Assembly: GCA_021787495.1 (NCBI GenBank)
Contig: JAJYLX010000002.1
Location: 21,455 to 53,454, forward strand
Direction of reading: 5' to 3'
From: Candidatus Micrarchaeota archaeon
Lineage (GTDB): Archaea > Micrarchaeota > Micrarchaeia > Micrarchaeales > Micrarchaeaceae
DNA length: 32,000 bases
Positions 9,038-24,333 of this stretch are shown one piece after another. Under the pieces are notes generated by a model, which was given only the letters and a program-made list of their open reading frames with translations, had not been told where the DNA came from and made no database searches. How positions within the stretch are numbered: the stretch's first letter is position 1; each line of letters begins with the position of its first letter. A program made the translations under genes and the position numbers.

Positions 9038-9419
9038 GGTTCTGGTGTTCGGCAACCCGATGCTGAAGGAGGACAGCCTGCCGCTGCGGCTCGTGCCAGG
9101 CCTCGCGAGGATGTTCCCCCATATAGAGTTCATCGAGTTCGACCCTAACGACGACATGGAGAAGGAGGGCAGGAACCTGAACATCATAGACACGGTGCAG
9201 GGCATAGACAAGGTGACGCTGCTTACGGAGAAGGATATAGATAGGCTCGAAGCGCAGAGGATCTGGTCGATGCACGACTTCGACCTCGCGCACAGCCTGA
9301 AGCTCCTCAAGAAGCTACACGCCATCGACACGGTTAGGATATTCGGCGTCCCGATGAGCATGAGGAAGGAAGAGGCGCTCCTCCAGCTCTCTGCGATGAT
9401 CAGCTCCACTTTACCTTGA
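9006..9419 (+). CDS. [NiFe]-hydrogenase maturation endopeptidase (HycI/HybD-like)
   Basis: Residues match the conserved metal-ligand positions: VLVFGNPMLKEDS (cf. GNxLxxDDG), IIDTVQG (cf. iiDA) and SMHDFDL (cf. sxHxxxL). The start codon is uncertain (GTG at 9006 or 9015). Confidence 0.6.
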   Translation: MLKVNAGRRHKVLVFGNPMLKEDSLPLRLVPGLARMFPHIEFIEFDPNDDMEKEGRNLNIIDTVQGIDKVTLLTEKDIDRLEAQRIWSMHDFDLAHSLKLLKKLHAIDTVRIFGVPMSMRKEEALLQLSAMISSTLP

Positions 9420-10698
9420 GGAAATGGCTCGCGCAGCTCATGCACGGGTCGTAGGCCCTTATCAGCTTTTCGATTTCGAACGTTATCCGCTCCTTTGAGG
9501 CGTCGATGTTCTGCTCCACCAGCTCGCCGATCGCCTTCTCCATGGTTATCTGGTTCTGCTGCGTGGGCACTATTATTCGCCCGTAGCCTATCCTGCCCTG
9601 CTTATTGACAGAGAGCATGTAGTATAGGGTCCCCCTCGGGGCCTCGAGCATCCCGACGCCTTCGCCGGCCTTTATCACGACCGGCTCGGGAGTTTCCTCC
9701 TTGAAGTCGTGCGCCTCGAGCAGCTCTATCGAGCGGTCTATGCTGTGCACGACCTCGATCGCCTGCGCGAGGTTGTTGTGGAATATGTTCTTGGACGGGA
9801 AGGCGCCAAGGTACTCCCGCACCGAGTCAAGCGTCGACTTGCACATCCTATCCCTGTTCAGGTTCATCCTCGCCAGCGCGCCGACCATGAACTCCTTGCC
9901 CTCGAAGCTGTAGCCCGTGGCCTCTGAATACGGTATAACGACCTTGTCCACATAGTCCCAGTAGCGCCCCTCTGGTATCACGGCCCCTTTCGTGTCGACG
10001 ACATCGCCTCCCCTGAAAGAGTAATCGTCAGTGAGGAGGGACACGAAGTCCGTATCGCGCTCCAGCTTGAACGTGCTCTTGTAGAATATGCCGACGAACT
10101 CGAGCGCGTGCTCCCTCACGTCCTTCAGCTCGTCTATCAGCTTCTTGACGGCGTCCTTTTCCGGGATATGCGAGAACTTCCCGACCTCGGCGTAGGTCTC
10201 ATGTATCGCCCTGCCCCCAACGACCTTGGAGAGGTTATTGCCGGCGCCCTTCACCTCGAATGCCTTCTTTATCATGTCGTTCTGCGAGTCGTCGAAATCG
10301 AGCACGGAGTCCTTGCCATAGATGTCGGGCAGGCAGAACAGGTAGAGGTGCATCGCATGGTCGCGTATCATCATGCCGTAGAGGGAGAGTTCCCTGAGCA
10401 GCAGCGTCTGGTCGGACGGCGTGTATCCGACAGCGTTCTCAACGGCCTCAGCGCAGCACGTCAGGTGCGCTATGCTGCACGTGCCGCACACCCTCGAGGT
10501 CATGAGCGGGAGCGAGAGCGCGGGCTTGCCCACTATCGCCTCGGTGTAGAACCTCTTGCTCTCCGTTATGCTGAGCTTCGCGTACTTTACCTTCCTATCG
10601 CGTATGCGTATGTCAACGCTCCCATGGCCCTCTATCTTGGTTATGCCCTCGAGGTGTATGTGCCCCTCCGGGCCTATGTCCGTCTCGTCCCTATGCAT
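9400..10698 (-). CDS. [NiFe]-hydrogenase large (catalytic) subunit
   Basis: The N-terminal RVCGTCSIAH and C-terminal DPCMSCASH Ni-Fe ligand motifs are present. A short extension (FLKVKWS) follows the His at the expected protease cleavage site. Confidence 0.9.
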   Translation of the reverse strand: MHRDETDIGPEGHIHLEGITKIEGHGSVDIRIRDRKVKYAKLSITESKRFYTEAIVGKPALSLPLMTSRVCGTCSIAHLTCCAEAVENAVGYTPSDQTLLLRELSLYGMMIRDHAMHLYLFCLPDIYGKDSVLDFDDSQNDMIKKAFEVKGAGNNLSKVVGGRAIHETYAEVGKFSHIPEKDAVKKLIDELKDVREHALEFVGIFYKSTFKLERDTDFVSLLTDDYSFRGGDVVDTKGAVIPEGRYWDYVDKVVIPYSEATGYSFEGKEFMVGALARMNLNRDRMCKSTLDSVREYLGAFPSKNIFHNNLAQAIEVVHSIDRSIELLEAHDFKEETPEPVVIKAGEGVGMLEAPRGTLYYMLSVNKQGRIGYGRIIVPTQQNQITMEKAIGELVEQNIDASKERITFEIEKLIRAYDPCMSCASHFLKVKWS

Positions 10699-12726: not shown

Positions 12727-12754
12727 CTCCATGAAGATACCAAAACGTGCTAAA

Positions 12755-14062
12755 ATGCCATCAACAAGGTTGGATAAGATCAGGCTGCAGGACGCCCAGA
12801 GGAAGACGCAGGCGCTGGGCCGCATCCAGAGCGGGGAGCTCAAGCTCCACGAGCTTGGCAGGGAATACGGGGAAGAGAGGGCCGCAGCGATCCGGAGGGC
12901 CTACCTGGAAGACAAGTACGGGTGCAGCCTCGTAAACGTCGCAAAAGCCTCGATAATAGACTATGAGGATGCGGCGAAGAGCAGCGCCGAGAACATGATA
13001 GGCGCCATGGGCAGCATACCTATAGGATTCAGTGAGGCCATAGTGGATGGCGAGTATCTCAACACGAGGAAGGAGTCAGCCAAGGCGGGCGCGAAGCCCG
13101 TGTTCCTCGCCACGACGGAGGGCAAGCTCATCTCAGGTATAAATCGCGGCATGAAAGCCATAAACGAAAGCGGAGGCGCGACAGCCCGCGTGCTCCGCGA
13201 TCATATGACGAGGAGCGTCGCCATAGAGCTGTCGGGCATAACGCAGGTGAAGGCAGCCATTGACCTCGCAAGGAGCCCTGCAGGGAACAAGACGATAGAA
13301 GAGGAGTTCTACAACAATACCAACCACGGGAGGCTGAAGCACGTGCAGTACTTCGCGGAAGGCAAGACGCTGTTCATGAGATACGACGTAGAGACGAAGG
13401 CGGCGATGGGCATGAACATGGTGACGATAGCGTCCAACAACGCGACAGCCGAGCTCGTCAAGCTGATGAATGCCAACGGCCTCCCCGCGGAAATCATCAC
13501 AGAGAGCGCTAACTTCTGCATAGACAAGAAAGGAGGGCACGTCAACAGGCTGCTCGGCAGAGGCCTCTCGGTGACCGCGGAAGCGGTCATACCAAAGGAC
13601 GTCGTCGAAAAAGTGCTCAAGACCACACCGGAGAAGATAGTCAAGATAAACTACAAAAAGAATTACGTCGGATCTAGCCTTGCCGGGTCGATGGGCAACA
13701 ACGCACAGGTGGCGAACGTCCTCGCTGCGACATTCATCGCCTACGGCCAGGACCTCGCACAGGTGGTCGACGGTGCTAACGCGATGGACGACGCCGACAT
13801 AACAGACAGCGGTTCCCTTTACTTCGCGGTCAACCTGCCCTCATTGGAGGTGGGGACATATGGTGGCGGCACGAGGAGGGAGGTGCAGAAGGAGCTCCTC
13901 AAGGCAAGCGGCGTCTACGGCGGCGGCGATGAGGATGGGGTGACGAAGATGCGGTTTGCGGAGCTGATAGCCGCGACCTGCCTCGCGGGGGAGCTGAACC
14001 TGCTTGCGGCGGAAACGAGCGGCCACCTCACGAAAGCGCATGGCTCGCTGCTCAGGAAATGA
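12755..14062 (+). CDS. hmgA: HMG-CoA reductase, class I
   Basis: Motifs present: ENMIGAMGSIPIGF, ATTEGKLISGINRGMKAIN (class I TTEGCLVAS-like), AAMGMNMV (DAMGxN) and C-terminal GHLTKAH. The track ORF starts at 12731. Confidence 0.9.
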   Translation: MPSTRLDKIRLQDAQRKTQALGRIQSGELKLHELGREYGEERAAAIRRAYLEDKYGCSLVNVAKASIIDYEDAAKSSAENMIGAMGSIPIGFSEAIVDGEYLNTRKESAKAGAKPVFLATTEGKLISGINRGMKAINESGGATARVLRDHMTRSVAIELSGITQVKAAIDLARSPAGNKTIEEEFYNNTNHGRLKHVQYFAEGKTLFMRYDVETKAAMGMNMVTIASNNATAELVKLMNANGLPAEIITESANFCIDKKGGHVNRLLGRGLSVTAEAVIPKDVVEKVLKTTPEKIVKINYKKNYVGSSLAGSMGNNAQVANVLAATFIAYGQDLAQVVDGANAMDDADITDSGSLYFAVNLPSLEVGTYGGGTRREVQKELLKASGVYGGGDEDGVTKMRFAELIAATCLAGELNLLAAETSGHLTKAHGSLLRK

Positions 14063-14101
14063 GCCGTGCGAGGCGAGGCCGCCAAGGCAAGCCCAAAAAG
14101 G

Positions 14102-14112
14102 CTTATAAATTT
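14102..14112 (+). promoter_or_regulatory. Strong TATA/BRE-like box in the hmgA-mvk spacer
   Basis: CCCAAAAAGG-CTTATAAATTT lies about 180 nt upstream of the mvk start, which implies either a long leader or a separate short transcript. Confidence 0.4.
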
Positions 14113-14288
14113 GGGAAAGCGAACACACTATAAAATAACCGGCGCATTCCGATGGCGATGGCATCGCAGAACCTGGCAAAGGTCGCGGTCTTTGTTCCAT
14201 ATTGGGCTACCATTGGCGCTATTGGGCCGTCCGCGCTTGCGTGGGTAGGGATTCCCGCGGCATCGCGCACGCCTGGATGGGTGGCCAT

Positions 14289-15341
14289 ATGGACGTGAGA
14301 GCGCCTGCCGTGATAAAGCTGTTCGGCGAACACGCCGTGGTGTACGGGAAGACCGCAGTGGCCATGGCCGTGGACCTGTACGCCGGGGCATCCGCCGAAG
14401 GCGCAGGACGGCTGTCGATAGCGCTGCCGGATATCGGCAAGAGCGCAACCCTACCAGATGAAGATCTCCACCGCATCTACGGCGCTTTCTCTTCCAGGGA
14501 AAGCATAGGCGGGTTCATATCCGGGCAGGGCATGGACCGCGACCTGCTCCCCTTCGCCTCCATAGCGGCGGCCCTCTCATCGCGGCATGGGGCAAGGCTT
14601 GATTATGAGGTTACGGTCACATCCGACATCCCTGTGCAGAAGGGCCTGGCAAGCAGCGCGGCGTGCTCGACCGCGTTCCTTGCGGCGCTCGTGAAGGCAA
14701 AAGGCCTGAGCCTGCCGGACGGGGAGTTCATGGAGCTGGCGAGGATCGGCGAGATGGTGCAGCATGCCAACGAGAACAGCGGGTTCATAGACGTGAGCAC
14801 CTCATATTACGGTGGCTTTGTCAGCTTCTCTGCGGGCTCGGCGAGGAGGCAGCGCGTGCCAAAGCCGCTCAGTCTCCTGCTTGTCGATACCGGACCGAAG
14901 AAGAAGACGTCAGAGATGGTGGAGGCGGTAAGGAGCAGATACGAATCCGATCCCGTGCAGACCATCGCCATCCTGGATGAGATAGATTCGTGCGGCATAA
15001 AGGGGATTGAAGCCCTCGGGAGCGATTCGCCGGACAGGCTGGAGAAGCTGGGGAGCCTGATGTACGACAATCAGGAAAGCCTTGCGCGGCTCGGAGTGTC
15101 AAGCGGTTCCTTGGATACAGCAGTTCGCCTGGCAAGGGTAGGGGGGGCATACGGAGCCAAGCTCAGCGGAGGCGGAGGTGGCGGCATGGCAGTGATACTC
15201 CCGAGGGGCAATCCCGACCCGCTCAAGAAGGCACTGGAGGGGAGCGGTTTCCACGTGAGCGAGATAACCACTTCGTTCTCCGGAGCAAGGGACTTCATGC
15301 AAAGTGGCGCGAAGCCGGCGGCCACCGGCTGTCCCACATAA
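14289..15341 (+). CDS. mvk: Mevalonate kinase
   Basis: MDVRAPAVIKLFGEHAVVYG matches the N-terminal APGKxILFGEHAVV pattern. The GHMP motif PVQKGLASSAACSTAF and KLSGGGGGG are present. The track ORF begins upstream at 14202 in non-conserved sequence. Confidence 0.9.
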   Translation: MDVRAPAVIKLFGEHAVVYGKTAVAMAVDLYAGASAEGAGRLSIALPDIGKSATLPDEDLHRIYGAFSSRESIGGFISGQGMDRDLLPFASIAAALSSRHGARLDYEVTVTSDIPVQKGLASSAACSTAFLAALVKAKGLSLPDGEFMELARIGEMVQHANENSGFIDVSTSYYGGFVSFSAGSARRQRVPKPLSLLLVDTGPKKKTSEMVEAVRSRYESDPVQTIAILDEIDSCGIKGIEALGSDSPDRLEKLGSLMYDNQESLARLGVSSGSLDTAVRLARVGGAYGAKLSGGGGGGMAVILPRGNPDPLKKALEGSGFHVSEITTSFSGARDFMQSGAKPAATGCPT

Positions 15342-15353
15342 GCTGCTGCAACG

Positions 15354-15366
15354 CCTATAAATTTTA
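15354..15366 (+). promoter_or_regulatory. TATA-like box upstream of the decarboxylase gene
   Basis: CCTATAAATTTTA is centred about 30 nt upstream of ATG 15392. Confidence 0.45.
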
Positions 15367-15391
15367 GCATCGAAACGAACCTGGTGGTTGG

Positions 15392-16447
15392 ATGGCAACA
15401 TGGCGAGAAAACCTGACAACCGCGTTGGCAACGCCGAACATCGCACTCATAAAGTACTGGGGCAAGAGAGACAGAAGGCTGATACTGCCTGCGAACTCGT
15501 CGGTGAGCATCACACTGGACGCGGCGCTCAATACCAGGACGAGCGTGATGTTCTCAGATGGGCTGAAGGAGGATGCGCTCTACATAAACGGCGAGCGCAT
15601 CAACCTGTCAGGCAAGGATGCGATCGAGCATGTAACACCAATCGATATCCTTAGGAAAATGGCCGGGGTAAAGGCAAAATTCCTTGCCGTCTCGAGGAAC
15701 TCGTTTCCGACGGCAGGCGGCCTCGCCTCGAGCGCCTCGGGCATAGCCGCGCTGGTCTTCGCGGCATCGCATTCGCTCGGCCTTGAGATAACTGGCAAGG
15801 ATCTCTCGATGATCGCCAGGAGGGGGAGCGGGAGTTCGTGCAGGAGCATGGTCGGCGGGTTCGTCAAATGGAACAGGGGCAGCTCATCCGACGGCAGCGA
15901 TTCGTTCGCGGAGCAGGTCGCCCCCCCGGGCCACTGGCCCGGCATCATGGACATCGTGGCGGTAGTTTCCAGGGAAAGGAAAAAGACGCCGTCGCGCGCC
16001 GGCATGGAGCAGACCGTCGAAAGCAGCATACTCTACAAGGGCAGGATGGAATACGTGGAAGGCGCGGTCGCCGAAATGGTCAAGTCCATCATCGATAAGA
16101 ATTTCGAGCGCCTCGCCGCGATAACGATGCGGGACAGCAACAACATGCACGCCACAATGCTCGACACATGGCCACCGATATTCTACATGAACGATGCCTC
16201 CCGCGAGATTGTCGACAGGATAAACGAGCTCAATTCAACGGAAGGGCGCAATGTTGCAGCATATACATTCGACGCGGGCCCGAACGCCCACATAATAACG
16301 CTCCGGCAAGACAGGTCCCTGGTGATTGGAGCCCTGCATGACATCGGGGGCATGAGCCTCATAGAGGCGGGGGTCGGCGGCGGCCCGAGGCTGGCGGAGG
16401 AGCACCTGATAGACGCGTCGACGATGACGCCCCTTCCGCAAGATTGA
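15392..16447 (+). CDS. mvaD: Diphosphomevalonate decarboxylase (MVD family)
   Basis: PNIALIKYWGKRD and FPTAGGLASSASG are present, along with the conserved SGSSCRS and RDSNNMHAT regions. Confidence 0.85.
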   Translation: MATWRENLTTALATPNIALIKYWGKRDRRLILPANSSVSITLDAALNTRTSVMFSDGLKEDALYINGERINLSGKDAIEHVTPIDILRKMAGVKAKFLAVSRNSFPTAGGLASSASGIAALVFAASHSLGLEITGKDLSMIARRGSGSSCRSMVGGFVKWNRGSSSDGSDSFAEQVAPPGHWPGIMDIVAVVSRERKKTPSRAGMEQTVESSILYKGRMEYVEGAVAEMVKSIIDKNFERLAAITMRDSNNMHATMLDTWPPIFYMNDASREIVDRINELNSTEGRNVAAYTFDAGPNAHIITLRQDRSLVIGALHDIGGMSLIEAGVGGGPRLAEEHLIDASTMTPLPQD

Positions 16448-16484
16448 ACCTGGACGGCAGCGCTGACGGAGCGGGGCTTGAGCC

Positions 16485-17639
16485 GTGATAGCTATGGAAA
16501 AGATACATGCGCGCGCACACGGGAAGATACTGTGGCTCGGCGGCTACTCGATACTGGAAAGGCCCAATCCTGGCTATGTCACCACGGTGGATGCCGCTGT
16601 AAGCGCCAGCCTTGTGCCACTCGCAGGCAATGTGGTAAGGATATCGGCGCCGGACTTTTCCCTGGAGGCCTCAGGGAAGATTGATCCGGGCCGAGGGGAC
16701 ATAAAGATGCGCGTGCCGCAGGAGCTTAAGCTGGTGTACTGCGCCATCAAGGCCGCCTCGTGCTATTCAGAGGCCATCGGCTTTAAGGTATCGGGATTCG
16801 GGATAACCACCAGGAGCGACAAGGCGTTCTCCTCAGGTTCAGGGCTATCAAAGTCGGGCCTCGGGAGCAGCGCCGCCGTGACCGTCGCTACCGCCGCTGC
16901 CGTACTTAGGCATTTTGGGGCAGACCCCTACAAGGACGATGCACTCCACAAGATCTCCCAAGCCGCGCACGCAATCGCGACCGGAAAGACCGGCAGCGGG
17001 TTCGACATCGCAGCTGCGATTTACGGAGACATAATATATTCGAGGTACGACCCGTCGATTCTCGCGGCGCTGCCACAGGAGTTCGACGCTGACGAAATCA
17101 GAGAGCTCGTGGAACGTGAATGGGACTACCGGATAGAAAGGCTTCCGCTTCCCCCGGCGTTCAGCTTCGCTGCCGCCAACTTCGTTGGTGGCTCATCAGC
17201 CACGAAGGCGATGGTCGGCACGGTGAACGAGTACAAGCGCACAAACCCAGATGAATACGCGTCGCTGATAAGGGAGATCAACAGCGAGAATGAGAAGGCG
17301 ATAACAGCATTGAGGAAGATTGGCAGCGGCGCCGCCGAGCCCCTAGGAGAATTCAAACGCGCATTCAACAGGGGCAGGGAGGCCTCGAAGCGGTTGGGCG
17401 CCGCGAGCAACGCAGATATAGAACCGGATGACATAACCTCGCTGATAGAGCAGACTGTCAACAGCGGCGCTTTCGTGGCCAAGAGCCCAGGGGCTGGCGG
17501 ACACGACGCGATAGCGGCGCTGTTCCTGGCAAGGGACGGTGCTGCGGCATACAATGACACGATTAGGCTCTGGTCCAGAGACAAGAGGCTCAAGGTGATG
17601 GACCTGAAAAGGAACAGCTGCGGCGTCGAGGTCCAATGA
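16485..17639 (+). CDS. Phosphomevalonate kinase, ERG8/GHMP type
   Basis: HGKILWLGGYSILE (cf. PGKxxLxGEYxVL), the GHMP motif SKSGLGSSAAVTVA and KSPGAGGHDA are present. The start is GTG 16485 or ATG 16494. Confidence 0.8.
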   Translation: MIAMEKIHARAHGKILWLGGYSILERPNPGYVTTVDAAVSASLVPLAGNVVRISAPDFSLEASGKIDPGRGDIKMRVPQELKLVYCAIKAASCYSEAIGFKVSGFGITTRSDKAFSSGSGLSKSGLGSSAAVTVATAAAVLRHFGADPYKDDALHKISQAAHAIATGKTGSGFDIAAAIYGDIIYSRYDPSILAALPQEFDADEIRELVEREWDYRIERLPLPPAFSFAAANFVGGSSATKAMVGTVNEYKRTNPDEYASLIREINSENEKAITALRKIGSGAAEPLGEFKRAFNRGREASKRLGAASNADIEPDDITSLIEQTVNSGAFVAKSPGAGGHDAIAALFLARDGAAAYNDTIRLWSRDKRLKVMDLKRNSCGVEVQ

Positions 17640-19542: not shown

Positions 19543-20691
19543 ATGACGTATCCTGCCTATGCTTATTTATATCGCTTCATGCGACACCCATTGCAGGTGA
19601 CTTCAATGTCAAGAGGCCCCTACATACCAGGGAAGCACAGCACACCATCGGTAGCGGAAGCGATTGACGTCTCCGCGCCATCGCCGATAGCGATCATGTC
19701 AGAGAAGCTGCACACCGTCGCATCCTCTCAAGGCAGGCTGCGCAGCAGCGCCTTCCTCGAGGGCGCAGCTAGCAACGGCTCGGCGCGCAGGCTCTCGTTC
19801 GTCTACACGGAGAACAACGGCACATCGACGCAGGCATTCGAGCCGATACCTATCTCGAAGCCGGACGTCGGCGTGCACGTCCTAGACATAACGAGGAAGG
19901 TGGACGGCGCGGTCAAGGAGCTGTCGAAGATACACACAGGAGTGGCGTTCGTGTCCACCGGCCCGAAGCCCGACACGGGGCTCACGCTCATGGAGTACGA
20001 GGACGGCTCCGTCGCGGACTACAAGCGGCTGATCGCGGATATGAAGGAGGCTGTCGGAGACGGCTTTTCCCCCGGGGCGATGCTGCGCTCCTACCTGCCG
20101 GTAATATTCATAGGGAAGAACATAAAGACGAGGGGCGCCGGATGCGAGGGCTGGGGCTGCATAGCGTACGTCGACGCCAACCAGTCCAGCGTGGAATCAG
20201 GCATCAATCTCTCGCTCGTCGGGGCGAAGGCCTCGGCCTTCGAGGTGCGCCACAGCGACGACGGCACTCCTTCCGTCCCTGGGCCGTGGGTCGTTGACAT
20301 AACCGCGCAGGTCGAGAACGAGGTCAAGGCGGCTGGCGTCCAGGACGGCACGGTGCTGGTCTCGACGCCACACACGACCGTCGGCATAATGGCCGCCGAG
20401 CGTGGCGAGGGGCTTGAGAGGCTCAAATCTTTCCTAATGAGGCTCGCCCCAGAAGGGGCGGATTACGTCCATCATCGCACCGCAGGTGACCACAATGGCC
20501 ATGGGCACCTGATGGCCGAGCTGCTTGGCTCGTACGCGCTCGTGCAGCTTTCCGGCGGCAGGATGGACCTGGGAGCCAGGCGTCTGCTGCTCATGGACTG
20601 CGACCCAGAGATAGGGAAGTCGCGCGCCGTAGGCACCGCAGTCATGCCTCTGTGCGAGGAACTGCAGTGGACGGGCCCGTGCCCAGGCTGA
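19543..20691 (+). CDS. Duplicated YjbQ/UPF0047 (secondary thiamine-phosphate synthase-like) protein
   Basis: The C-terminal domain is intact: VDITAQVENEV..GTVLVSTPHTTVGIMAAE..Y.HH..GDHNGHGHLMAELLG..LG. An upstream degenerate copy is also present (VLDITRKVDGAV..GVAFVSTG..LTLMEYEDG...GWGCIAYVD), preceded by about 95 aa of unknown sequence. Confidence 0.65.
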   Translation: MTYPAYAYLYRFMRHPLQVTSMSRGPYIPGKHSTPSVAEAIDVSAPSPIAIMSEKLHTVASSQGRLRSSAFLEGAASNGSARRLSFVYTENNGTSTQAFEPIPISKPDVGVHVLDITRKVDGAVKELSKIHTGVAFVSTGPKPDTGLTLMEYEDGSVADYKRLIADMKEAVGDGFSPGAMLRSYLPVIFIGKNIKTRGAGCEGWGCIAYVDANQSSVESGINLSLVGAKASAFEVRHSDDGTPSVPGPWVVDITAQVENEVKAAGVQDGTVLVSTPHTTVGIMAAERGEGLERLKSFLMRLAPEGADYVHHRTAGDHNGHGHLMAELLGSYALVQLSGGRMDLGARRLLLMDCDPEIGKSRAVGTAVMPLCEELQWTGPCPG

Positions 20692-20714: not shown

Positions 20715-21494
20715 CTACCAGATGTACGGGCCGACGGCCCTCTCGATGAAGGCATCCCCCCTGAACCACGAGGATATCCTCATGCCGGCATCGCTGCATT
20801 CCCTGAATGTCCTGAAGCCGGCGAAGACGGTTGGCCCCTTCCCGGTAACCCCGCACTCCTCGGAGCCGTGCCTTAACTCCCTCAGCAGCCTGGCGGTGTC
20901 CGGGCAGAGCTCCGATGCCAGCTGCGTGAAGCCCTTGCCTGTCTTGTCATGCAGAGCGTACATCTCCCTCGTGCTCAGCTCCATGCGAGGGTGCGCTATC
21001 ACGTAGTAGATGTTGGGGCTGCCCATCCTCCTTATGGTATGGCTTGCGGACCCGCTGACCATCGCCCTGCCGCCGTAGAGCAGGAAAGAGACGTCGTTGC
21101 CGACCCTTTCCGCGACCCTCTGCAGGTCCGCGGCGCCCATGCCGAGCGCGAACGCCCTGTTGGCCAGCCTGAGCGCCGCGGCCGCGTCGGAGCTGCCCCC
21201 TCCCATGCCCGCCGCCATCGGTATGGACTTCGATATCGTTATCCTGCAGCTGAGCCGCATGCCCGCCTCCTTCGACAGCTCGTCCAGCGCCTTCTCCACT
21301 ATGTTGCCCGGGACGAGCGGCCCCTCTATGCCAGCCTCTCTGCTACTTGTCCTCCTGAGCGCGACACGGTCGTGCAGCGACACCGTCTGGAAGACGCCAG
21401 ACACCTCGTGCATGCCGCTGCCGTCCTTCTCGCCTATCGAGAGGCCGATGTTAAGCTTCGCCATCGCGCACGCGGAATAAGTACTGCCGCTCAT
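20715..21494 (-). CDS. ispE: 4-diphosphocytidyl-2-C-methyl-D-erythritol kinase-like GHMP kinase
   Basis: AKLNIGLSIGEKDGSGMHEVSGVFQTVSLHD matches the IspE pattern KINLxLxVxGxRxDGYHxLxS. Also present are ISKSIPMAAGMGGGSSDAAAAL and VGNDVSFLLYGGRAMVSG (cf. LGADVPFFLxGGxAxxxG). An alternative TTG start lies at 21533. Confidence 0.75.
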   Translation of the reverse strand: MSGSTYSACAMAKLNIGLSIGEKDGSGMHEVSGVFQTVSLHDRVALRRTSSREAGIEGPLVPGNIVEKALDELSKEAGMRLSCRITISKSIPMAAGMGGGSSDAAAALRLANRAFALGMGAADLQRVAERVGNDVSFLLYGGRAMVSGSASHTIRRMGSPNIYYVIAHPRMELSTREMYALHDKTGKGFTQLASELCPDTARLLRELRHGSEECGVTGKGPTVFAGFRTFRECSDAGMRISSWFRGDAFIERAVGPYIW

Positions 21495-21537
21495 CGCAAT
21501 GCCCCTGTAAACCTTGTCTCTCACCCTCTCCAACCGA

Positions 21538-22068
21538 TCACTCTCCCTCGGAACGCCTGAGCATGACGTTCGCCGCCGCGTTTATGCCCCTGCCTTTGCC
21601 GTGCTCGCTGAGCCCCTCTCCAGTGGTGGCGCCTATGCCGACGCTGCCCTCATCGACGCCTAGCGCCGTCGCGACGTTCTTCCTCATCCTGTCGATGTGG
21701 CCGCTGAGCCGCGGCCTGCCCGCGGTTATCATCACCGTGGCGTTGCTGACCGCGTATCCCGCCTCCCTGACCTTCCCCATCACGAAGCCCAGGAGCCTGC
21801 CGCCCTCTATGCCCTCGTAGTCGGGATCCGTGTCCGGGAAGTGGAAGCCGATGTCGCGCTCTCCTATCGCGAGCAGCAGCGCATTGGCGAGCGCGTGGTA
21901 GACCACGTCGCCGTCGGAGTGCGCCACTGGGGTATACCCGTCCGACACGACGACCCCCGCGAGCTTGAGCGGCTTCCGGCTCCCATCGTTCGGCTCTATC
22001 CTGTGGTCATCGGACCCGTTGCCTATGAGATACGCCGGGCGGCCCGCGCGTCCGCGTTGCTTCTGCAT
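21538..22068 (-). CDS. ispF: 2-C-methyl-D-erythritol 2,4-cyclodiphosphate synthase
   Basis: IGNGSDDHRI (cf. IGHGFDVHRF), AHSDGDVVYHALANALL, DIGFHFPDTDPDYEGIEG and GIGATTGEGLSEHGKGRGI (cf. KATTxExLGFxGRxEGI) are present. The Asp/His zinc ligands are conserved. The start is taken at ATG 22068. Confidence 0.85.
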   Translation of the reverse strand: MQKQRGRAGRPAYLIGNGSDDHRIEPNDGSRKPLKLAGVVVSDGYTPVAHSDGDVVYHALANALLLAIGERDIGFHFPDTDPDYEGIEGGRLLGFVMGKVREAGYAVSNATVMITAGRPRLSGHIDRMRKNVATALGVDEGSVGIGATTGEGLSEHGKGRGINAAANVMLRRSEGE

Positions 22069-22108
22069 GTACGGTAATCTCGCAATAGAATAATACGCCT
22101 TGCGCCGG

Positions 22109-23716
22109 TCAAGGCGACAGGGCGCCGAGCCGCGAGAACGGGAGCACTTCAATCCTGTTGCCCGAAAGCCCAGCGTACCTACTGGCGTGGTCGTCGTTCA
22201 CCACCACTATCGTCCTGGAGTACGCCCCGCTCCTGTCGCGTATCATCGCCGCGGTCTCGCCGAAGTTCTTCCTGCCCGTCTCATACTCTATCGCGATCCT
22301 GCCTCCGGCATATGCGACGATGTCGGGACCGCCCGGACGCCTGTTGACATAGTGCCTTATGTGAAGCCCGCCCAGCCTTTCTGATATCTCCCTTACGCGT
22401 TCCTCGTGCTCATCGCTCACATTGGCGGGCTTTGCCACTATGGCCGCCCCATTCCCGTCGCCGTTGGGCGGCTTTGCCGCGCGCGTCCTTACGACGACCG
22501 CGCCCTCCCTTCCGGAGACTATCGCCTCGTTTATCCCCAGCCGCTCGAGCATGCCGCGCACGACGTTCGCCCTGAACGCGTCGCCCTTCGCTATCGCGCT
22601 GGCCACGTAGTTGATCTCGGAGGGCTCGTTGATGTGGAAGGCGATGAACGTCGCGGAATTGGCGATTATGTCCTTCGGCAGCATCGCCGAGCTGTTCGTG
22701 ACTATAACTATCGCGTAGCCGAACTTCCTCCCCTCGTTCACCAGCGACGTCAGCAGCGCCCCGGCGTTGTCGAGCAGGAACCTGCTCTCGTCTATGATGA
22801 TGTAGAGTCTGATTCCCCTCTCCATCTGGTTGCCCCTCATGGCGCCGTACAGCCTCTTCACGGCCTCATGCATGTAGATGACCTTCGCCTCCGTGTTCTG
22901 GATGCCCGACAGGGAGAAAGAATTTATCCCGCTTGCCAGGCCATCCATGCCTACGTGGCTGCTGATCGGCATGCACTTCTGCAGCGAGGCTACCCTCTGC
23001 CGTATGTGCTCCAGCCTCTCCCTCTCGGCCGCCCCCTTTGCGTTGTTCGCGAAGATGGAGAGCTCGCCCACAAGGTCCCGCAGCGTCGGAACCCTGCTGA
23101 GCTCGCTGCCGTTCATGTCGCGCACGCACTTCCTGTACGTGTAGTAGAGCGCGCTGTTCAGGGCGACCCTCTGCAGGTACCCTAGGCCGTACACGTCCGA
23201 GAGGAGGTTCGCCAGCTCCTCTATCCTCTGCGAGATCGTAAGCCCGTCGAGCGCGAAGATGTTTATGTTCTCCCTAGAGGCGTCGTGCGCCTTCCCTCCC
23301 AGCCCCTCTATCAGCGCCTCGTGCTCGCTGTGCCCGTCGAAGAGCACGATCGGCTTCCCCGCTCCGGCTATCTCCCTTATCATGGTCTTGAGCAGCGTGG
23401 ACTTCCCATAGCCTGACGCCCCGAGTATCACCGTATGGGGGTTGGCCTCCCTTTCCGGCAGCAGCCGGAACCTGCCGAACGCCCTCTTCCATACGAAGGT
23501 GCGCATGTACGAGTAGGTCACCGCGCGCCCGTTGAAGCGGGGTTCCGCCATCCATGCGTTGCAGAGCCTTCTCCTCCTCTTTCCTAGCTCTATGTGGAAG
23601 CCTCTCCCGTTCCACTCCCATGTCCAACCTGTCAATCGTTTTATCTTCGCCAAAATGCCATCGGTCACGGAAACACCTCGATGGCAGGGCGCGCGCTCTG
23701 CGGCTGCGAATGCCAA
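22109..23716 (-). CDS. HerA/FtsK-type (DUF87-like) P-loop ATPase fused to a C-terminal Hjc-like PD-(D/E)xK domain
   Basis: The ATPase part has Walker A (ILGASGYGKST), Walker B (LYIIIDESRF) and a HerA-like distal motif (IVIVTNSSAMLPKDIIANSATFIAFHINEP). The last 100 aa or so (EERVREISERLGG..GGPDIVAY..IAIEYETGRK..IEVLPFSRL) parallel the archaeal Hjc motifs (ERxxxxxL..PDIIA..IExK..IPFEKL). The start is uncertain (TTG 23716 or GTG 23668). Confidence 0.6.
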   Translation of the reverse strand: MAFAAAERAPCHRGVSVTDGILAKIKRLTGWTWEWNGRGFHIELGKRRRRLCNAWMAEPRFNGRAVTYSYMRTFVWKRAFGRFRLLPEREANPHTVILGASGYGKSTLLKTMIREIAGAGKPIVLFDGHSEHEALIEGLGGKAHDASRENINIFALDGLTISQRIEELANLLSDVYGLGYLQRVALNSALYYTYRKCVRDMNGSELSRVPTLRDLVGELSIFANNAKGAAERERLEHIRQRVASLQKCMPISSHVGMDGLASGINSFSLSGIQNTEAKVIYMHEAVKRLYGAMRGNQMERGIRLYIIIDESRFLLDNAGALLTSLVNEGRKFGYAIVIVTNSSAMLPKDIIANSATFIAFHINEPSEINYVASAIAKGDAFRANVVRGMLERLGINEAIVSGREGAVVVRTRAAKPPNGDGNGAAIVAKPANVSDEHEERVREISERLGGLHIRHYVNRRPGGPDIVAYAGGRIAIEYETGRKNFGETAAMIRDRSGAYSRTIVVVNDDHASRYAGLSGNRIEVLPFSRLGALSP

Positions 23717-23722
23717 ATAGGT

Positions 23723-23744
23723 GGGATGGTGAGGGTACCATCCC
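23723..23744 (-). other. 8-bp stem-loop in the 30-nt spacer between the small ORF and the ATPase gene
   Basis: GGGATGGT-GAGGGT-ACCATCCC is a perfect inverted repeat. On the mRNA strand it ends 7 nt before the TTG start of the ATPase gene. Confidence 0.5.
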
Positions 23745-23746
23745 GA

Positions 23747-24010
23747 TCAGACTGGCTGTAGCCTGACAAGCTCCGCAGCTCTCAGGCTGTCTACTTTGAA
23801 GGTCGCGGTGAATGCCCTGTAGTCCCCCGTGCACCTGCCGTACTGCCTGGCCCAGCCCTTGAGGGCCCTCAGCCATTGCAGCGCCCTGTACAGGTCTTCC
23901 ACGTCCCGCTCCACCATGGCCCCGTCCGTCTGCTCCTCGCCGTCTCCTCTCACAAGATGGTCCAGAGCCGCTTTCATCCTAGCTTCCGCTGTGTCGTTCG
24001 TTGTTTCCAT
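23747..24010 (-). CDS. Hypothetical small protein (87 aa) upstream of the ATPase-nuclease gene
   Basis: The start is taken at ATG 24010, preceded by GGTGAG. A TATA-like CTATATAAATT lies about 48 nt upstream. The protein has an acidic N-half and a basic, aromatic C-half. No family was recognised. Confidence 0.45.
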   Translation of the reverse strand: METTNDTAEARMKAALDHLVRGDGEEQTDGAMVERDVEDLYRALQWLRALKGWARQYGRCTGDYRAFTATFKVDSLRAAELVRLQPV

Positions 24011-24207
24011 TTGGCTCACCCAAAAATGAGACTGATGCCCGCGCCTTGCCGGACCCAATTTATATAGCGTCGGGTCAGAACACTTTCCTTACTCTATTTA
24101 CTGCAATAAACTATTTATACCTTACTATACTATCTAATACCAAAGTAATGCTTATATGCCTTCATCTCCATATAGTAGCGCCGGTTGTTGTTTCCGGCAA
24201 CCCAGAA

Positions 24208-24227
24208 GGGGCGGCCCGCGCCGCCCC
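24208..24227. other. Perfect 8-bp GC stem-loop inside an AT-rich divergent intergenic region
   Basis: GGGGCGGC-CCGC-GCCGCCCC. It is flanked upstream by a 5-bp hairpin (24180-24198). Downstream lie palindromes and a GCGCTTTT run near 24277-24284. Confidence 0.5.
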
Positions 24228-24333
24228 GTTTATGCTTGCAAGCCCGGGAGCCTCGTCAACTGACGCATGCGGCGCAGCGCTTTTAAGCCTTCTCTAACAA
24301 CGTTAGACTGCTTGGATCGAAGAGGCAGACAAT

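What the first reader, a model, noticed from the sequence alone, without database searches (positions are those of the whole stretch)
22109..24010. HerA/FtsK-type ATPase fused to an Hjc-like resolvase/nuclease domain, with an upstream 87-aa partner ORF
The 535-aa protein combines a DUF87/HerA-like P-loop translocase core (Walker A GASGYGKST, Walker B IIIDESRF, distal TNSS..IANSATFIAF motif) with a C-terminal module of about 100 aa. That module follows the order of archaeal Holliday-junction resolvase Hjc motifs: ER..x..L, G-PDIVA, IAIEYETG and a terminal ..VLPF..L. The canonical ExK lysine position is Glu (E-Y-E), with R-K three residues later. The nuclease may therefore be variant or inactive. 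A small acidic/basic ORF precedes the gene, separated by 30 nt containing a perfect 8-bp hairpin that ends 7 nt before the TTG start. This suggests coupled or regulated translation. Two functions are plausible. HerA-family ATPases paired with nucleases occur in DNA end-resection (HerA-NurA) and in anti-phage systems, and separate ATPases cooperate with Hjc in archaeal branch migration. A single-chain translocase-resolvase with a small partner could thus be either an undescribed defence module or a junction-processing module.
Basis: partly seen in the sequence, partly recalled or inferred. Interest (0 to 1): 0.7.

Follow-up and report, generated by a model that had tools for sequence, protein, structure and literature searches.

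The report
Micrarchaeota DNA-motor ATPase with tethered nuclease
This is a real gene pair, conserved across the tiny symbiotic archaea called Micrarchaeota, that encodes a ring-type DNA-pumping ATPase with a restriction-enzyme-like DNA-cutting domain on its tail plus a small helper protein; its cellular job is unknown, and it is a new variant of a familiar motor-plus-nuclease design.

Summary
ORF 22109-23716(-) encodes a HerA/VirB4/DptH-clade P-loop ATPase with intact Walker A, Walker B and EGRK motifs. A 102-aa C-terminal domain models with high confidence (pLDDT 92) as a PD-(D/E)xK restriction-endonuclease fold. Hjc is among its nearest structures, but so are FokI and HindIII. It matches no Pfam or PDB sequence model. 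Its E436/D465/E477-x-E479 set resembles the active BamHI type and is near-invariant in 74 relatives.

The 87-aa upstream ORF belongs to a real family. It lies upstream on the same strand in about 21 of 77 related loci and is fused to the ATPase N-terminus in three.

At least 117 species genomes carry the ATPase-nuclease gene, 75 of the 80 listed titled Micrarchaeota/Micrarchaeia/Micrarchaeaceae. It sits among housekeeping genes, not in defence islands, plasmids or viruses.

Two corrections. The ATPase probably starts at GTG 23668 (519 aa). The 8-bp hairpin is a conserved post-stop, terminator-like element, not a translational coupler.

Best reading: an ATP-driven hexameric dsDNA translocase whose tethered nuclease domains cut the DNA it handles. 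The cellular role is unresolved: repair/resection, DNA uptake or transfer, or defence. This is a new variant of a known kind, of moderate interest.

The parts
24059..24066 (-). TATA-like box (TATATAAA on the minus strand), about 49 nt upstream of the small-ORF ATG, in the AT-rich divergent intergenic region
   Evidence: Read directly from the sequence. The intergenic region 24060-24333 is 48% GC against 58% for the window. Promoter function is inferred, not tested.
24016..24020 (-). Shine-Dalgarno-like GGTGA, 4 nt upstream of the ATG of the 87-aa ORF
   Evidence: Sequence. It supports the 87-aa start over the 103-aa TTG start and the 76-aa annotated start.
23747..24010 (-). Small partner protein, 87 aa, pI 5.3, with a helical N-terminal two-thirds and a C-terminal beta-hairpin-like Y-x-h-x-V motif. 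It belongs to a family of about 90-aa proteins found so far only in Micrarchaeota-labelled records.
   Evidence: ORF. Family alignment and HMM. 16 database homologs, all hypothetical proteins of 58-103 aa. Fused to the ATPase N-terminus in L025, L026 and L032, which correspond to P0021 and P0024. No Pfam, NCBIfam, PADLOC, PHROG or PDB match.
23723..23744 (-). Perfect 8-bp hairpin (GGGAUGGU, 6-nt loop, ACCAUCCC) beginning 2 nt after the small-ORF stop codon. Probably a terminator, attenuator or RNA-stability element.
   Evidence: Both arms are conserved while the loop differs in L001 and L043. In L001 the hairpin is followed by TCTTTTTTGTTTTG. It is absent in L003. No covariation is available, so the structure itself is unproven.
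23674..23679 (-). Shine-Dalgarno-like GAGGTG, 5 nt upstream of GTG 23668
   Evidence: codon listing. It aligns with GCGGTG upstream of the ATG start in L001.
22109..23716 (-). ATPase-nuclease gene as publicly annotated (535 aa, TTG start). The probable true start is GTG at 23668 (519 aa, pI 9.7).
23447..23668 (-). N-terminal domain (aa 17-90): one helix followed by a long three-stranded beta-meander. Basic.
   Evidence: AlphaFold2 model m176e3e412562. Blocks covering aa 41-90 have pLDDT 88-94; aa 1-16 and 29-37 are below 50. W76 is invariant.
22484..23446 (-). HerA/VirB4/DptH-type P-loop ATPase core (aa 91-411). Walker A at 23396-23422, Walker B at 22787-22804, EGRK (arginine-finger region) at 22724-22735, N353.
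   Evidence: Pfam DUF87 6e-11. PDB sequence hits to SIR2-HerA 8wiv and Sso HerA 4d2i. Foldseek: 7es4 at 3e-17, 4d2i at 1e-14, 4ag6 at 3e-13. Motifs are conserved in every relative in which the residue aligns: D309, E310, E328, R330, K331 and N353 in all 74; Walker A residues in 70-71 of 74, the rest being alignment gaps.
22418..22483 (-). Flexible linker (aa 412-433, Pro/Gly/Ala-rich). About 64 of 74 relatives carry a roughly 60-aa extra domain here, which this protein lacks.
   Evidence: pLDDT below 50 for aa 417-431. Insert-length distribution. Alignment A1 columns 515-600.
22112..22417 (-). C-terminal PD-(D/E)xK (restriction-endonuclease-fold) domain, aa 434-535. Candidate catalytic residues: E436 (22409-22411), H437, D465 (22322-22324), E477-Y-E479 (22280-22288) and K483 (22268-22270).
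   Evidence: AF2 model m0ce2e932620f, pLDDT 91.9, topology alpha-beta-beta-beta-alpha-beta-alpha-beta. Foldseek matches to FokI, HindIII, Hjc, Hje, YaeQ, BsaWI, SfsA and VRR-NUC. hhalign register against Hjc. Residue conservation 64-73 of 74.

Best explanation
The locus is a two-gene module that appears to be vertically inherited and that the scans found almost only in Micrarchaeota.

The large protein most likely assembles, like its HerA, VirB4 and DptH relatives, into a hexameric ring that uses ATP to move along or pump double-stranded DNA. Each subunit carries a small PD-(D/E)xK nuclease domain on a flexible 20-aa tether. In most relatives the tether also holds an extra domain of about 60 aa.

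The nuclease has a BamHI-type metal-binding set: E436, D465, E477 and E479, with K483 and H437 nearby. The tethered nucleases would cut the DNA that the motor engages. The protein would then be a single-chain helicase/translocase-nuclease, the functional counterpart of two-protein machines such as HerA-NurA or HerA-DUF4297.

The 87-aa protein is an accessory subunit that works on the N-terminal face of the ring. In some genomes it is literally the N-terminal domain. One possibility is that it supplies strands to complete the small N-terminal beta domain, or that it gates DNA access.

What is shown: the fold and motif integrity of both domains, their conservation, the partner linkage and fusion, the phyletic distribution and the chromosomal housekeeping context.

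What is inferred: hexamer formation, DNA translocation, nuclease activity, and the partner's docking site.

The confidence given (0.55) is for this molecular reading, an ATP-driven DNA translocase with an active tethered nuclease and a small accessory subunit. It is not for any one cellular role.

Cellular role, my ranking with low certainty:
- DNA end-processing or recombinational repair, about 0.3.
- Processing of DNA during uptake or transfer, about 0.25.
- Defence, about 0.15.
- Branch migration plus junction resolution, about 0.1.
- Other, about 0.2.
For: ATPase identity:
-, plus Foldseek (7es4 DptH-C at 3e-17, TM 0.78; 4d2i HerA at 1e-14; 4ag6 VirB4 at 3e-13, TM 0.75).
- The Walker A/B, EGRK and N353 residues are the same in every one of the 74 relatives in which they align.

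Nuclease fold:
- pLDDT 91.9 with the canonical alpha-beta-beta-beta-alpha-beta core.
- The top PDB matches are dominated by restriction-endonuclease-fold proteins.
- The register against Hjc places D465 on D33 and E477/E479 on E46/K48.
- D465, E477, E479, K483 and H437 are conserved in 72-73 of 74 relatives.
- The E..D..ExE set is the active-site type of BamHI and OkrAI, which are active enzymes (PMC3025578).

Partner:
- Family alignment.
- Homologs in 22 of 77 loci, 21 of them upstream on the same strand, and 3 fusions.

Vertical chromosomal inheritance:
- 117 relatives; 75 of the 80 listed are titled Micrarchaeota, Micrarchaeia or Micrarchaeaceae, and each comes from a different assembly.
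- An intron-containing tRNA lies divergently upstream in 35 of 77 loci.
- Neighbours are housekeeping genes.
- No relatives in IMG/VR, and no relatives in phage or plasmid collections beyond the ATPase core.
Against: - No biochemical data exist for any family member.
- The canonical catalytic Lys is replaced by Glu. In EcoRV and EcoRI the K-to-E swap abolishes activity (PMC3025578), so activity depends on a BamHI-like geometry that I could not inspect, because no model coordinates were available.
- Foldseek E-values for the nuclease domain are modest (2e-3 to 1e-2).
- No neighbouring gene points to a pathway.
- The A_DKE genome also encodes two other HerA-like ATPases and Mre11 (PMC8975820 Supplementary Data S5). 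This weakens the idea that the protein simply replaces HerA-NurA.
- The small partner is detectable near the ATPase in only about 30% of loci.
Confidence: 0.55

Rival explanations
1. DNA-transfer or DNA-uptake motor. The protein is a soluble derivative of the ATPases that drive type-IV-secretion-like, Ced-like or mobile-element DNA transfer. Its nuclease would act like a relaxase or terminase, cutting DNA to create or process the transported substrate. In an episymbiont this could serve acquisition of host DNA.
For: - The same nuclease domain (ES-x-x-H, PD, ExETG-x-K) sits at the C-terminus of a near-bona-fide VirB4-like ATPase with a fused PrgI. That ATPase is P0166: 285 bits against a cut-off of 325 for NF045971. 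It lies next to a TrbC/T4SS pilin gene.
- The domain also occurs on DUF87 ATPases in mobile-element-like gene arrays (L088, L089).
- It also occurs on small membrane-anchored proteins (P0144, P0146, P0156, P0164).
- The best NCBIfam hits are CedD and CedB, which are DNA-import ATPases (PMC11868833).
Against: - The CedD/CedB scores are 45-50 bits against cut-offs of 600-700.
- The Micrarchaeota protein has no transmembrane segment and no VirB4-type N-terminal domain.
- No pilin, VirB6/CedA-like or other transfer gene lies near it in 77 loci.
- The family has no relatives in viral contigs, phages or plasmids.
Confidence: 0.22
2. Single-chain anti-virus or anti-plasmid defence enzyme, a fused version of HerA-plus-effector systems such as HerA-DUF4297 or SIR2-HerA.
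For: - Structural neighbours of the ATPase include DptH/DndH-C, SIR2-HerA, DUF4297-HerA and TdpA.
- PADLOC hits to mad8 (2e-19), HerA and DndH.
- DUF4297 is also a PD-(D/E)xK nuclease (my own knowledge).
- A VapBC pair sits next to the module in L003.
Against: - The PADLOC hits cover only the generic ATPase core.
- The gene is conserved across the phylum, with one locus per assembly among the 80 listed.
- Synteny to a tRNA and to housekeeping genes is conserved.
- No defence genes are nearby. By contrast, the SIR2-HerA relative P0034 lies in a classical defence island with AbiE, WYL and BrxB.
Confidence: 0.15
3. Branch-migration motor fused to a Holliday-junction resolvase. The ring would migrate four-way junctions and pairs of C-terminal domains would resolve them.
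For: - Hjc and Hje are among the closest structures: 2eo0 at 5e-3 with 26% identity, plus 2wcw and 1ob8.
- The domain has Hjc-like size and motif order.
- In five Micrarchaeum-clade loci a weakly T7-endonuclease-I-like gene lies just upstream.
- No 'Hjc', 'Holliday' or 'resolvase' annotation appears in the stored part of the A_DKE annotation table. That table is truncated, so this is weak evidence.
Against: - No Hjc Pfam match, and the catalytic Lys is replaced.
- FokI and HindIII score equally well.
- The same domain is attached to T4SS-type ATPases and membrane anchors, which does not fit a dedicated resolvase.
- HerA/VirB4-type rings are not known branch-migration motors (my own knowledge).
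Confidence: 0.1
4. The C-terminal domain is a catalytically dead restriction-endonuclease-fold module used only for DNA binding or oligomerisation. The protein would then be just a translocase.
For: - The Lys-to-Glu replacement at the canonical position.
- Inactive restriction-endonuclease folds are common. The Rpb5 N-domain and YaeQ appear among the matches.
Against: - Four acidic residues, plus His and Lys, are near-invariant at 36% median identity. That pattern is what a metal-dependent active site predicts.
- The ExE arrangement is active in BamHI and OkrAI.
Confidence: 0.1

Closest known systems
HerA-NurA DNA end-resection complex (archaea)
   Same: Both use a hexameric HerA-clade ATPase working with a nuclease on dsDNA. 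The ATPase core aligns with Sso HerA 4d2i and Tko HerA 9x1m. An A_DKE family member was machine-annotated 'HerA helicase', arCOG00285 (PMC8975820 Supplementary Data S5).
   Different: - Here the nuclease is fused in cis and has a PD-(D/E)xK fold, whereas NurA has a different fold (my own knowledge).
- HerA NCBIfam scores are 28-35 bits against cut-offs of 800-970.
- There is no mre11/rad50/nurA linkage.
- The N-terminal domain is a short beta-meander rather than a demonstrated HAS barrel.
HerA-DUF4297 and SIR2-HerA anti-phage systems
   Same: Both pair a HerA-type ring with an effector. In DUF4297 the effector is a PD-(D/E)xK nuclease. They are structural neighbours (8xav, 8zir, 8wiv).
   Different: - Those are two-gene systems in defence islands (for example P0034).
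- Here the design is a single chain, with a different nuclease family, a small helical partner, and phylum-wide syntenic conservation.
Archaeal Holliday-junction resolvases Hjc/Hje
   Same: Minimal domain of about 100 aa with the alpha-beta-beta-beta-alpha-beta fold and the same order of E, D, E catalytic positions.
   Different: - No sequence-family match.
- Glu replaces the catalytic Lys.
- An extra invariant His437, and Lys483 four residues downstream.
- The domain is tethered to an ATPase rather than being a free dimer.
BamHI/OkrAI-type restriction endonuclease active site
   Same: An E...D...E-x-E catalytic quartet: E77/D94/E111/E113 in BamHI, and E436/D465/E477/E479 here.
   Different: No detectable sequence homology. 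BamHI is a sequence-specific dimeric type II enzyme with its own recognition elements.
VirB4 / CedB / CedD DNA-transfer ATPases
   Same: The same ATPase clade (4ag6 TM 0.75; best NCBIfam hits). The nuclease domain family also occurs on a VirB4-like protein in a T4SS-like cluster.
   Different: The Micrarchaeota protein has no transmembrane segment, no VirB4 N-terminal domain and no adjacent transfer genes. Its scores are far below the family cut-offs.

Membership tests
FtsK-HerA superfamily (HerA/VirB4/DptH clade) | P-loop ATPase core matching DUF87/HerA central domain above the curated threshold, with Walker A, Walker B and the EGRK arginine-finger region | tested here: met
   PF01935 scores 43.3 bits against a cut-off of 23.2. 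Motifs verified and the same in every one of 74 relatives in which they align. Foldseek 1e-13 to 3e-17 against DptH-C, HerA and VirB4.
Canonical HerA (DSB-repair helicase) | Scores above the NCBIfam equivalog cut-off (NF040819, NF040937) | tested here: not met
   28.3 and 34.5 bits against cut-offs of 970 and 800.
Canonical HerA (DSB-repair helicase) | Operon or neighbourhood with nurA, mre11 and rad50 | tested here: not met
   None of these genes was identified in the window ORFs or in the ten most frequent neighbour-gene clusters of 77 related loci that I scanned with Pfam. Mre11 in A_DKE is gene 00054, far from gene 00101.
Canonical HerA (DSB-repair helicase) | N-terminal HAS beta-barrel domain | tested here: inconclusive
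   The model shows a helix plus three long strands at aa 18-85. No domain-level structural comparison was possible.
FtsK/SpoIIIE | Pfam FtsK_SpoIIIE above threshold, and a gamma winged-helix domain | tested here: not met
   PF01580 scores 22.7 bits against a cut-off of 24, matching the P-loop only. This protein has no gamma-like domain. A winged-helix identity for the relatives' mid insert was not demonstrated.
VirB4 / CedB / CedD | Equivalog score, transmembrane or VirB4-type N-terminal domain, and adjacent pilin/VirB6-like genes | tested here: not met
   CedD 49.7 bits against 600, CedB 44.6 against 700, VirB4 27.3 against 643. I saw no hydrophobic transmembrane-like stretch on reading the sequence; no prediction program was run. 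No transfer genes are nearby.
PD-(D/E)xK (restriction-endonuclease-like) fold | An alpha-beta-beta-beta-alpha-beta core with acidic residues at the start of beta2 and in beta3 | tested here: met
   Model pLDDT 91.9 and its topology. The top PDB matches are mostly restriction-endonuclease-fold proteins. D465 lies at the start of beta2, and E477/E479 lie in beta3.
PD-(D/E)xK (restriction-endonuclease-like) fold | Canonical (D/E)-x-K with the catalytic Lys in beta3 | tested here: not met
   The motif is E477-Y-E479 in 72 of 74 relatives. This is a BamHI-like ExE variant, and K483 is displaced by four residues.
Hjc Holliday-junction resolvase family | Sequence-family membership (Pfam Hjc model) | tested here: not met
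   No Pfam hit for the C-terminal domain of 8 members at E<=10. No PDB sequence hit with the domain profile. hhalign against Pfu Hjc, whose sequence I supplied from memory, gives probability 8.8%.
Hjc Holliday-junction resolvase family | Dimeric enzyme that cuts four-way junctions specifically | not testable with these tools
   Requires biochemistry.
HerA-based anti-phage systems (SIR2-HerA, DUF4297-HerA) | Adjacent SIR2 or DUF4297 effector gene, a defence-island context and patchy distribution | tested here: not met
   No such neighbours. PADLOC hits cover the ATPase core only. The gene is conserved across the phylum. Contrast locus L093.

The most novel reading that the evidence does not exclude
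The module is a core, lineage-defining DNA-handling machine of Micrarchaeota. It would be a self-contained motor that both cuts and pumps duplex DNA. Its nuclease module is shared with T4SS VirB4-like ATPases and membrane-anchored proteins of other uncultured lineages. It would be used by these host-dependent cells to take in or process host DNA, for nucleotide scavenging or gene acquisition. That would define a relaxase-independent class of DNA-transfer motor in which the ATPase carries its own restriction-endonuclease-fold cutter.
Probability: 0.12. Interest if true: 0.8.

Novelty: new variant of a known kind. Interest (0 to 1): 0.45.

Why it matters
Micrarchaeota are genome-reduced, host-dependent archaea whose conserved 'hypothetical' genes are largely unexplained.

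This finding gives three things:
- A gene pair conserved across the phylum that combines a DNA motor with its own nuclease.
- A previously unmodelled restriction-endonuclease-fold domain family with a rare BamHI-type ExE active site.
- A link between that domain and T4SS-type ATPases and membrane-anchored proteins elsewhere.

If the protein turns out to be a repair enzyme, it would show how a minimal archaeon compresses a helicase-nuclease complex into one chain. If it handles incoming DNA, it would bear on how DPANN symbionts acquire DNA or nucleotides from hosts.

In either case it is a compact candidate for biochemical study. It has a cultivated representative, Ca. Micrarchaeum harzensis A_DKE, gene Micr_00101.

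Tried and rejected
**Dead ends**
- jackhmmer seeded with the 87-aa protein alone found only itself. The family emerged only after I aligned the upstream ORFs by hand and iterated an HMM.
- Pfam (E<=10) and PDB profile searches of the C-terminal domain gave nothing.
- The roughly 60-aa insert in most relatives could not be shown to be a winged helix. hhalign against the HTH-bearing P0137 gave probability 0.2%, and the PDB profile search gave nothing. That idea rests only on positional analogy with P0137 and P0143.
- A PDB profile search of the small-protein family gave no credible hit.
- ARAGORN's default run and Rfam found no RNA gene in the window.
- Gene-neighbourhood clustering over 77 loci found no conserved functional partner other than the small protein.
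- A search with the membrane-anchored nuclease-domain family returned only unnamed proteins, so its taxonomy stays unknown.

**Ideas rejected**
- Viral or plasmid origin of the Micrarchaeota family: no IMG/VR relatives, and phage and plasmid hits cover only the ATPase core at about 25% identity.
- Translational coupling through the hairpin: the probable start is 48 nt further downstream, and the hairpin has a terminator-like context.

**Tools unavailable**
- The Iyer et al. 2004 FtsK-HerA paper is not held.


Full report

Yes. The minus strand carries an ORF at 22109-23716 (535 aa from TTG) and an upstream ORF at 23747-24010 (87 aa from ATG).

I checked the coordinates by translation.
- An identical 535-aa protein is in the public protein collection, on a 178-kb contig (P0001).
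- The 8-bp hairpin (23723-23730 / 23737-23744) is perfect. It ends 6 nt before the TTG.

**2. Gene boundaries and signals**

The TTG start is probably too far upstream.

- GTG at 23668 is preceded by GAGGTG with a 5-nt spacer.
- It aligns with the ATG start of the 71%-identical relative L001.
- Residues 1-16 are disordered in the model.
- The protein is therefore most likely 519 aa.

The 87-aa start of the small ORF is supported in three ways.

- A GGTGA lies 4 nt upstream.
- TATATAAA lies about 49 nt upstream, in the AT-rich divergent intergenic region.
- It matches the L001 homolog's N-terminus, MEETTK against METTND.
- The public record calls only 76 aa (P0196).

The hairpin starts 2 nt after the small ORF's stop codon.

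- Both arms are conserved in L001 and L043, while the loop and flanks differ.
- In L001 it is followed by TCTTTTTTGTTTTG.
- This is the anatomy of a terminator or attenuator, not of translational coupling.
- The arms do not vary, so there is no covariation to prove the structure.

**3. The ATPase**

- Pfam DUF87 (HerA central domain) is passed: 43 bits against a cut-off of 23.
- All narrower models fail. These are HerA, FtsK, VirB4, CedB, CedD and TraD, each 15-50 bits against cut-offs of 24-1177.
- A full-length AlphaFold2 model (pLDDT 83.8) matches these structures:
  - the DptH/DndH C-domain (7es4, 3e-17, TM 0.78);
  - Sulfolobus HerA (4d2i);
  - VirB4 (4ag6, TM 0.75);
  - the HerA subunits of SIR2-HerA, DUF4297-HerA, TdpAB and Thermococcus HerA-NurA.
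- The protein thus belongs to the HerA/VirB4/DptH clade of the FtsK-HerA superfamily, without joining any described family.
- D309, E310 (Walker B), E328, R330, K331 (EGRK) and N353 are identical in all 74 relatives. Walker A residues are identical wherever they align, in 70-71 of 74, the rest being gaps.

**4. The C-terminal domain**

- Residues 434-535, modelled with a 25-sequence alignment, give pLDDT 91.9. The order of elements is alpha-beta-beta-beta-alpha-beta-alpha-beta.
- The top Foldseek hits in the PDB are dominated by restriction-endonuclease-fold proteins:
  - the FokI cleavage domain (2e-3);
  - HindIII (3e-3);
  - Hjc ST1444 (5e-3, 26% identity);
  - A. fulgidus Hjc and Hje (1e-2);
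  - YaeQ, BsaWI, SfsA, VRR-NUC and Bax1.
- The fold is therefore established. A specific kinship to Hjc is not.
- No Pfam model matches at E<=10, and no PDB sequence matches.
- hhalign against Pfu Hjc gave a weak alignment (P = 0.004). The register is D465 on D33, E477 on E46 and E479 on K48.
- Across 74 relatives, conservation is E436 64/74, H437 72, D465 73, E477 72, E479 72 and K483 72.
- An E...D...E-x-E set is the catalytic quartet of BamHI and OkrAI, which are active enzymes. That paper notes the set is rare (PMC3025578).
- I infer an active, metal-dependent nuclease. I could not inspect model coordinates.

**5. The small partner**

- A single-sequence search failed.
- The ORFs upstream of close relatives align with the window's ORF. 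An iterated HMM then finds homologs in 22 of 77 distinct loci.
  - Nine are directly upstream.
  - Nine or ten are 0.8-5.4 kb upstream.
  - All but one are on the ATPase strand.
- In L025, L026 and L032 (P0021, P0024; 674-676 aa) the same domain is the N-terminus of the ATPase itself. Such a fusion is strong evidence that the two proteins work together.
- The family has 16 database members, all unnamed 'hypothetical' proteins of about 60-100 aa.
- It has no match in Pfam, NCBIfam, PADLOC, PHROGs or the PDB.
- The idea that the partner completes the ATPase's N-terminal beta domain is my speculation.

**6. Distribution and context**

- A scan of one genome per species found 117 relatives. Of the 80 listed, 75 are titled Micrarchaeota, Micrarchaeia or Micrarchaeaceae, and each comes from a different assembly.
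- The list includes the closed genome of Ca. Micrarchaeum sp. A_DKE.
- The window itself is chromosomal housekeeping DNA:
  - transporters and a hydrogenase subunit;
  - a mevalonate-pathway cluster;
  - IspE and IspF directly downstream of the ATPase;
  - polyprenyl synthase and a PLP enzyme upstream.
- Close relatives share this synteny.
- In 35 of 77 loci an intron-containing tRNA, mostly read as tRNA-Ser(UGA), lies divergently just upstream.
- Other neighbours are housekeeping genes and are not conserved.
- There are no relatives in IMG/VR. Phage and plasmid collections match only the ATPase core, at about 25% identity.
- PADLOC hits cover only the ATPase core.
- A distant hit, P0034, is a true SIR2-HerA gene in a defence island. 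It shows what a defence context looks like.
- In the A_DKE annotation table the family member is gene Micr_00101, machine-labelled 'HerA helicase', arCOG00285. The same genome has two other HerA-like ATPases and Mre11. The stored part of the table contains no NurA or Hjc entry, but the table is truncated (PMC8975820 Supplementary Data S5).

**7. The nuclease domain elsewhere**

A profile of the domain finds 264 proteins among 1.84 billion representatives. Beyond the Micrarchaeota family it occurs in four settings.

- At the C-terminus of other DUF87 ATPases, preceded by a recognisable winged helix. Examples are P0137 from Ignisphaera and P0143.
- On a VirB4-like ATPase with a fused PrgI, next to a T4SS pilin gene (P0166, L085).
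- In mobile-element-like gene arrays (L088, L089).
- On small proteins with an N-terminal membrane anchor.

All keep the signature H ... PD ... E-x-E-T-G-x-K. The domain is thus a recurrent accessory of DNA-translocating ATPases. The window's protein belongs to the minority of its family (about 10 of 74) that lack the roughly 60-aa insert between ATPase and nuclease.

**8. Most likely mechanism**

By homology, the protein forms a hexameric ring that moves on dsDNA using ATP. Six nuclease domains on flexible tethers cut the DNA being handled. They may need to pair, as FokI cleavage domains and Hjc do. The small protein acts at the N-terminal face.

Shown:
- the folds and motifs of both domains;
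- their conservation;
- the partner linkage, including fusions;
- the distribution and genomic context.

Inferred:
- oligomeric state;
- DNA translocation;
- nuclease activity;
- the partner's docking site;
- the cellular role.

Vertical, syntenic, apparently single-copy conservation argues for a housekeeping DNA transaction rather than defence. The kinship of the nuclease domain with T4SS and mobile-element ATPases keeps a DNA-uptake or transfer role open. The Hjc resemblance keeps junction resolution open.

**9. Novelty**

Motor-plus-nuclease designs are well known. Examples are HerA-NurA, HerA-DUF4297, terminases and RecBCD-type enzymes. Four things are new here:

- the single-chain architecture;
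- an unmodelled restriction-endonuclease-fold family with an ExE site;
- the small partner that is sometimes fused;
- the near-restriction of the gene pair to one DPANN phylum.

I found no paper describing it. It is only machine-annotated as 'HerA helicase' or 'DUF87'. I rate it a new variant of a known kind, with moderate interest.

Noticed in passing
window 12731-17639 (+) and 20715-22152 (-); L003 10818-16847: This Micrarchaeota window carries a mevalonate-pathway cluster: HMG-CoA reductase, three GHMP-family kinases or decarboxylases, and MVD. It also carries MEP-pathway genes, IspF (YgbB, 7e-44) and an IspE-like GHMP kinase. Relative L003 has IspG, IspH, DXR and IspD next to the ATPase. 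MEP genes are unusual in archaea.
   Followed up: partly
related loci, e.g. L036 5660-5778(-), L058 5663-5788(-), L075 5553-5686(-): A tRNA gene of about 120-135 nt with an intron of about 40 nt lies divergently 50-250 bp upstream of the ATPase in 35 of 77 related loci. ARAGORN with introns allowed mostly reads it as tRNA-Ser(UGA). The default ARAGORN run missed it, but Rfam found it. It is not present in the window.
   Followed up: partly
L075 4941-5534(+), L073 4275-4907(+), also L074, L076, L078: In the Micrarchaeum clade, a 197-242-aa protein is encoded just upstream of the tRNA and ATPase, on the ATPase strand. It has a sub-threshold match to phage T7 endonuclease I, a junction-resolving restriction-endonuclease-fold enzyme (PF05367, 24.5 bits against a cut-off of 29.1). 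It is also listed as such in PMC8975820 Supplementary Data S5 (gene Micr_00100). It is found only in these five loci.
   Followed up: partly
L085 7490-12787; L088; L089; proteins P0144, P0146, P0156, P0164: The same H..PD..ExETGxK nuclease domain has no Pfam model. It occurs on a PrgI-VirB4-like ATPase beside a TrbC/T4SS pilin gene, on DUF87 ATPases in mobile-element-like arrays, and on small N-terminally membrane-anchored proteins from unnamed metagenomic organisms.
   Followed up: partly
window 22068-22152: The IspF ORF, as listed from its first start codon (TTG 22152), overlaps the 3' end of the ATPase gene by 44 nt. The Pfam match begins at aa 43, and an ATG at about 22068 would leave a 41-nt gap. 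In this genome the ATPase, IspF and IspE are tightly packed on one strand. That arrangement is not conserved in relatives.
   Followed up: no
window 9400-10698 (-): An ORF with a NiFe-hydrogenase large-subunit match (PF00374, 1.6e-23) in a Micrarchaeota chromosome.
   Followed up: no
L003 6709-7385 (-): A VapBC (PIN plus VapB) toxin-antitoxin pair is inserted between the polyprenyl synthase gene and the small partner ORF in a close relative. It is absent from the window.
   Followed up: no
window 19543-20691 (+): A 382-aa protein whose YjbQ/UPF0047 domain occupies only aa 252-356. The roughly 250-aa N-terminal part has no family match. Homologs of 365-371 aa lie convergent to the ATPase in L001 and L003.
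   Followed up: no
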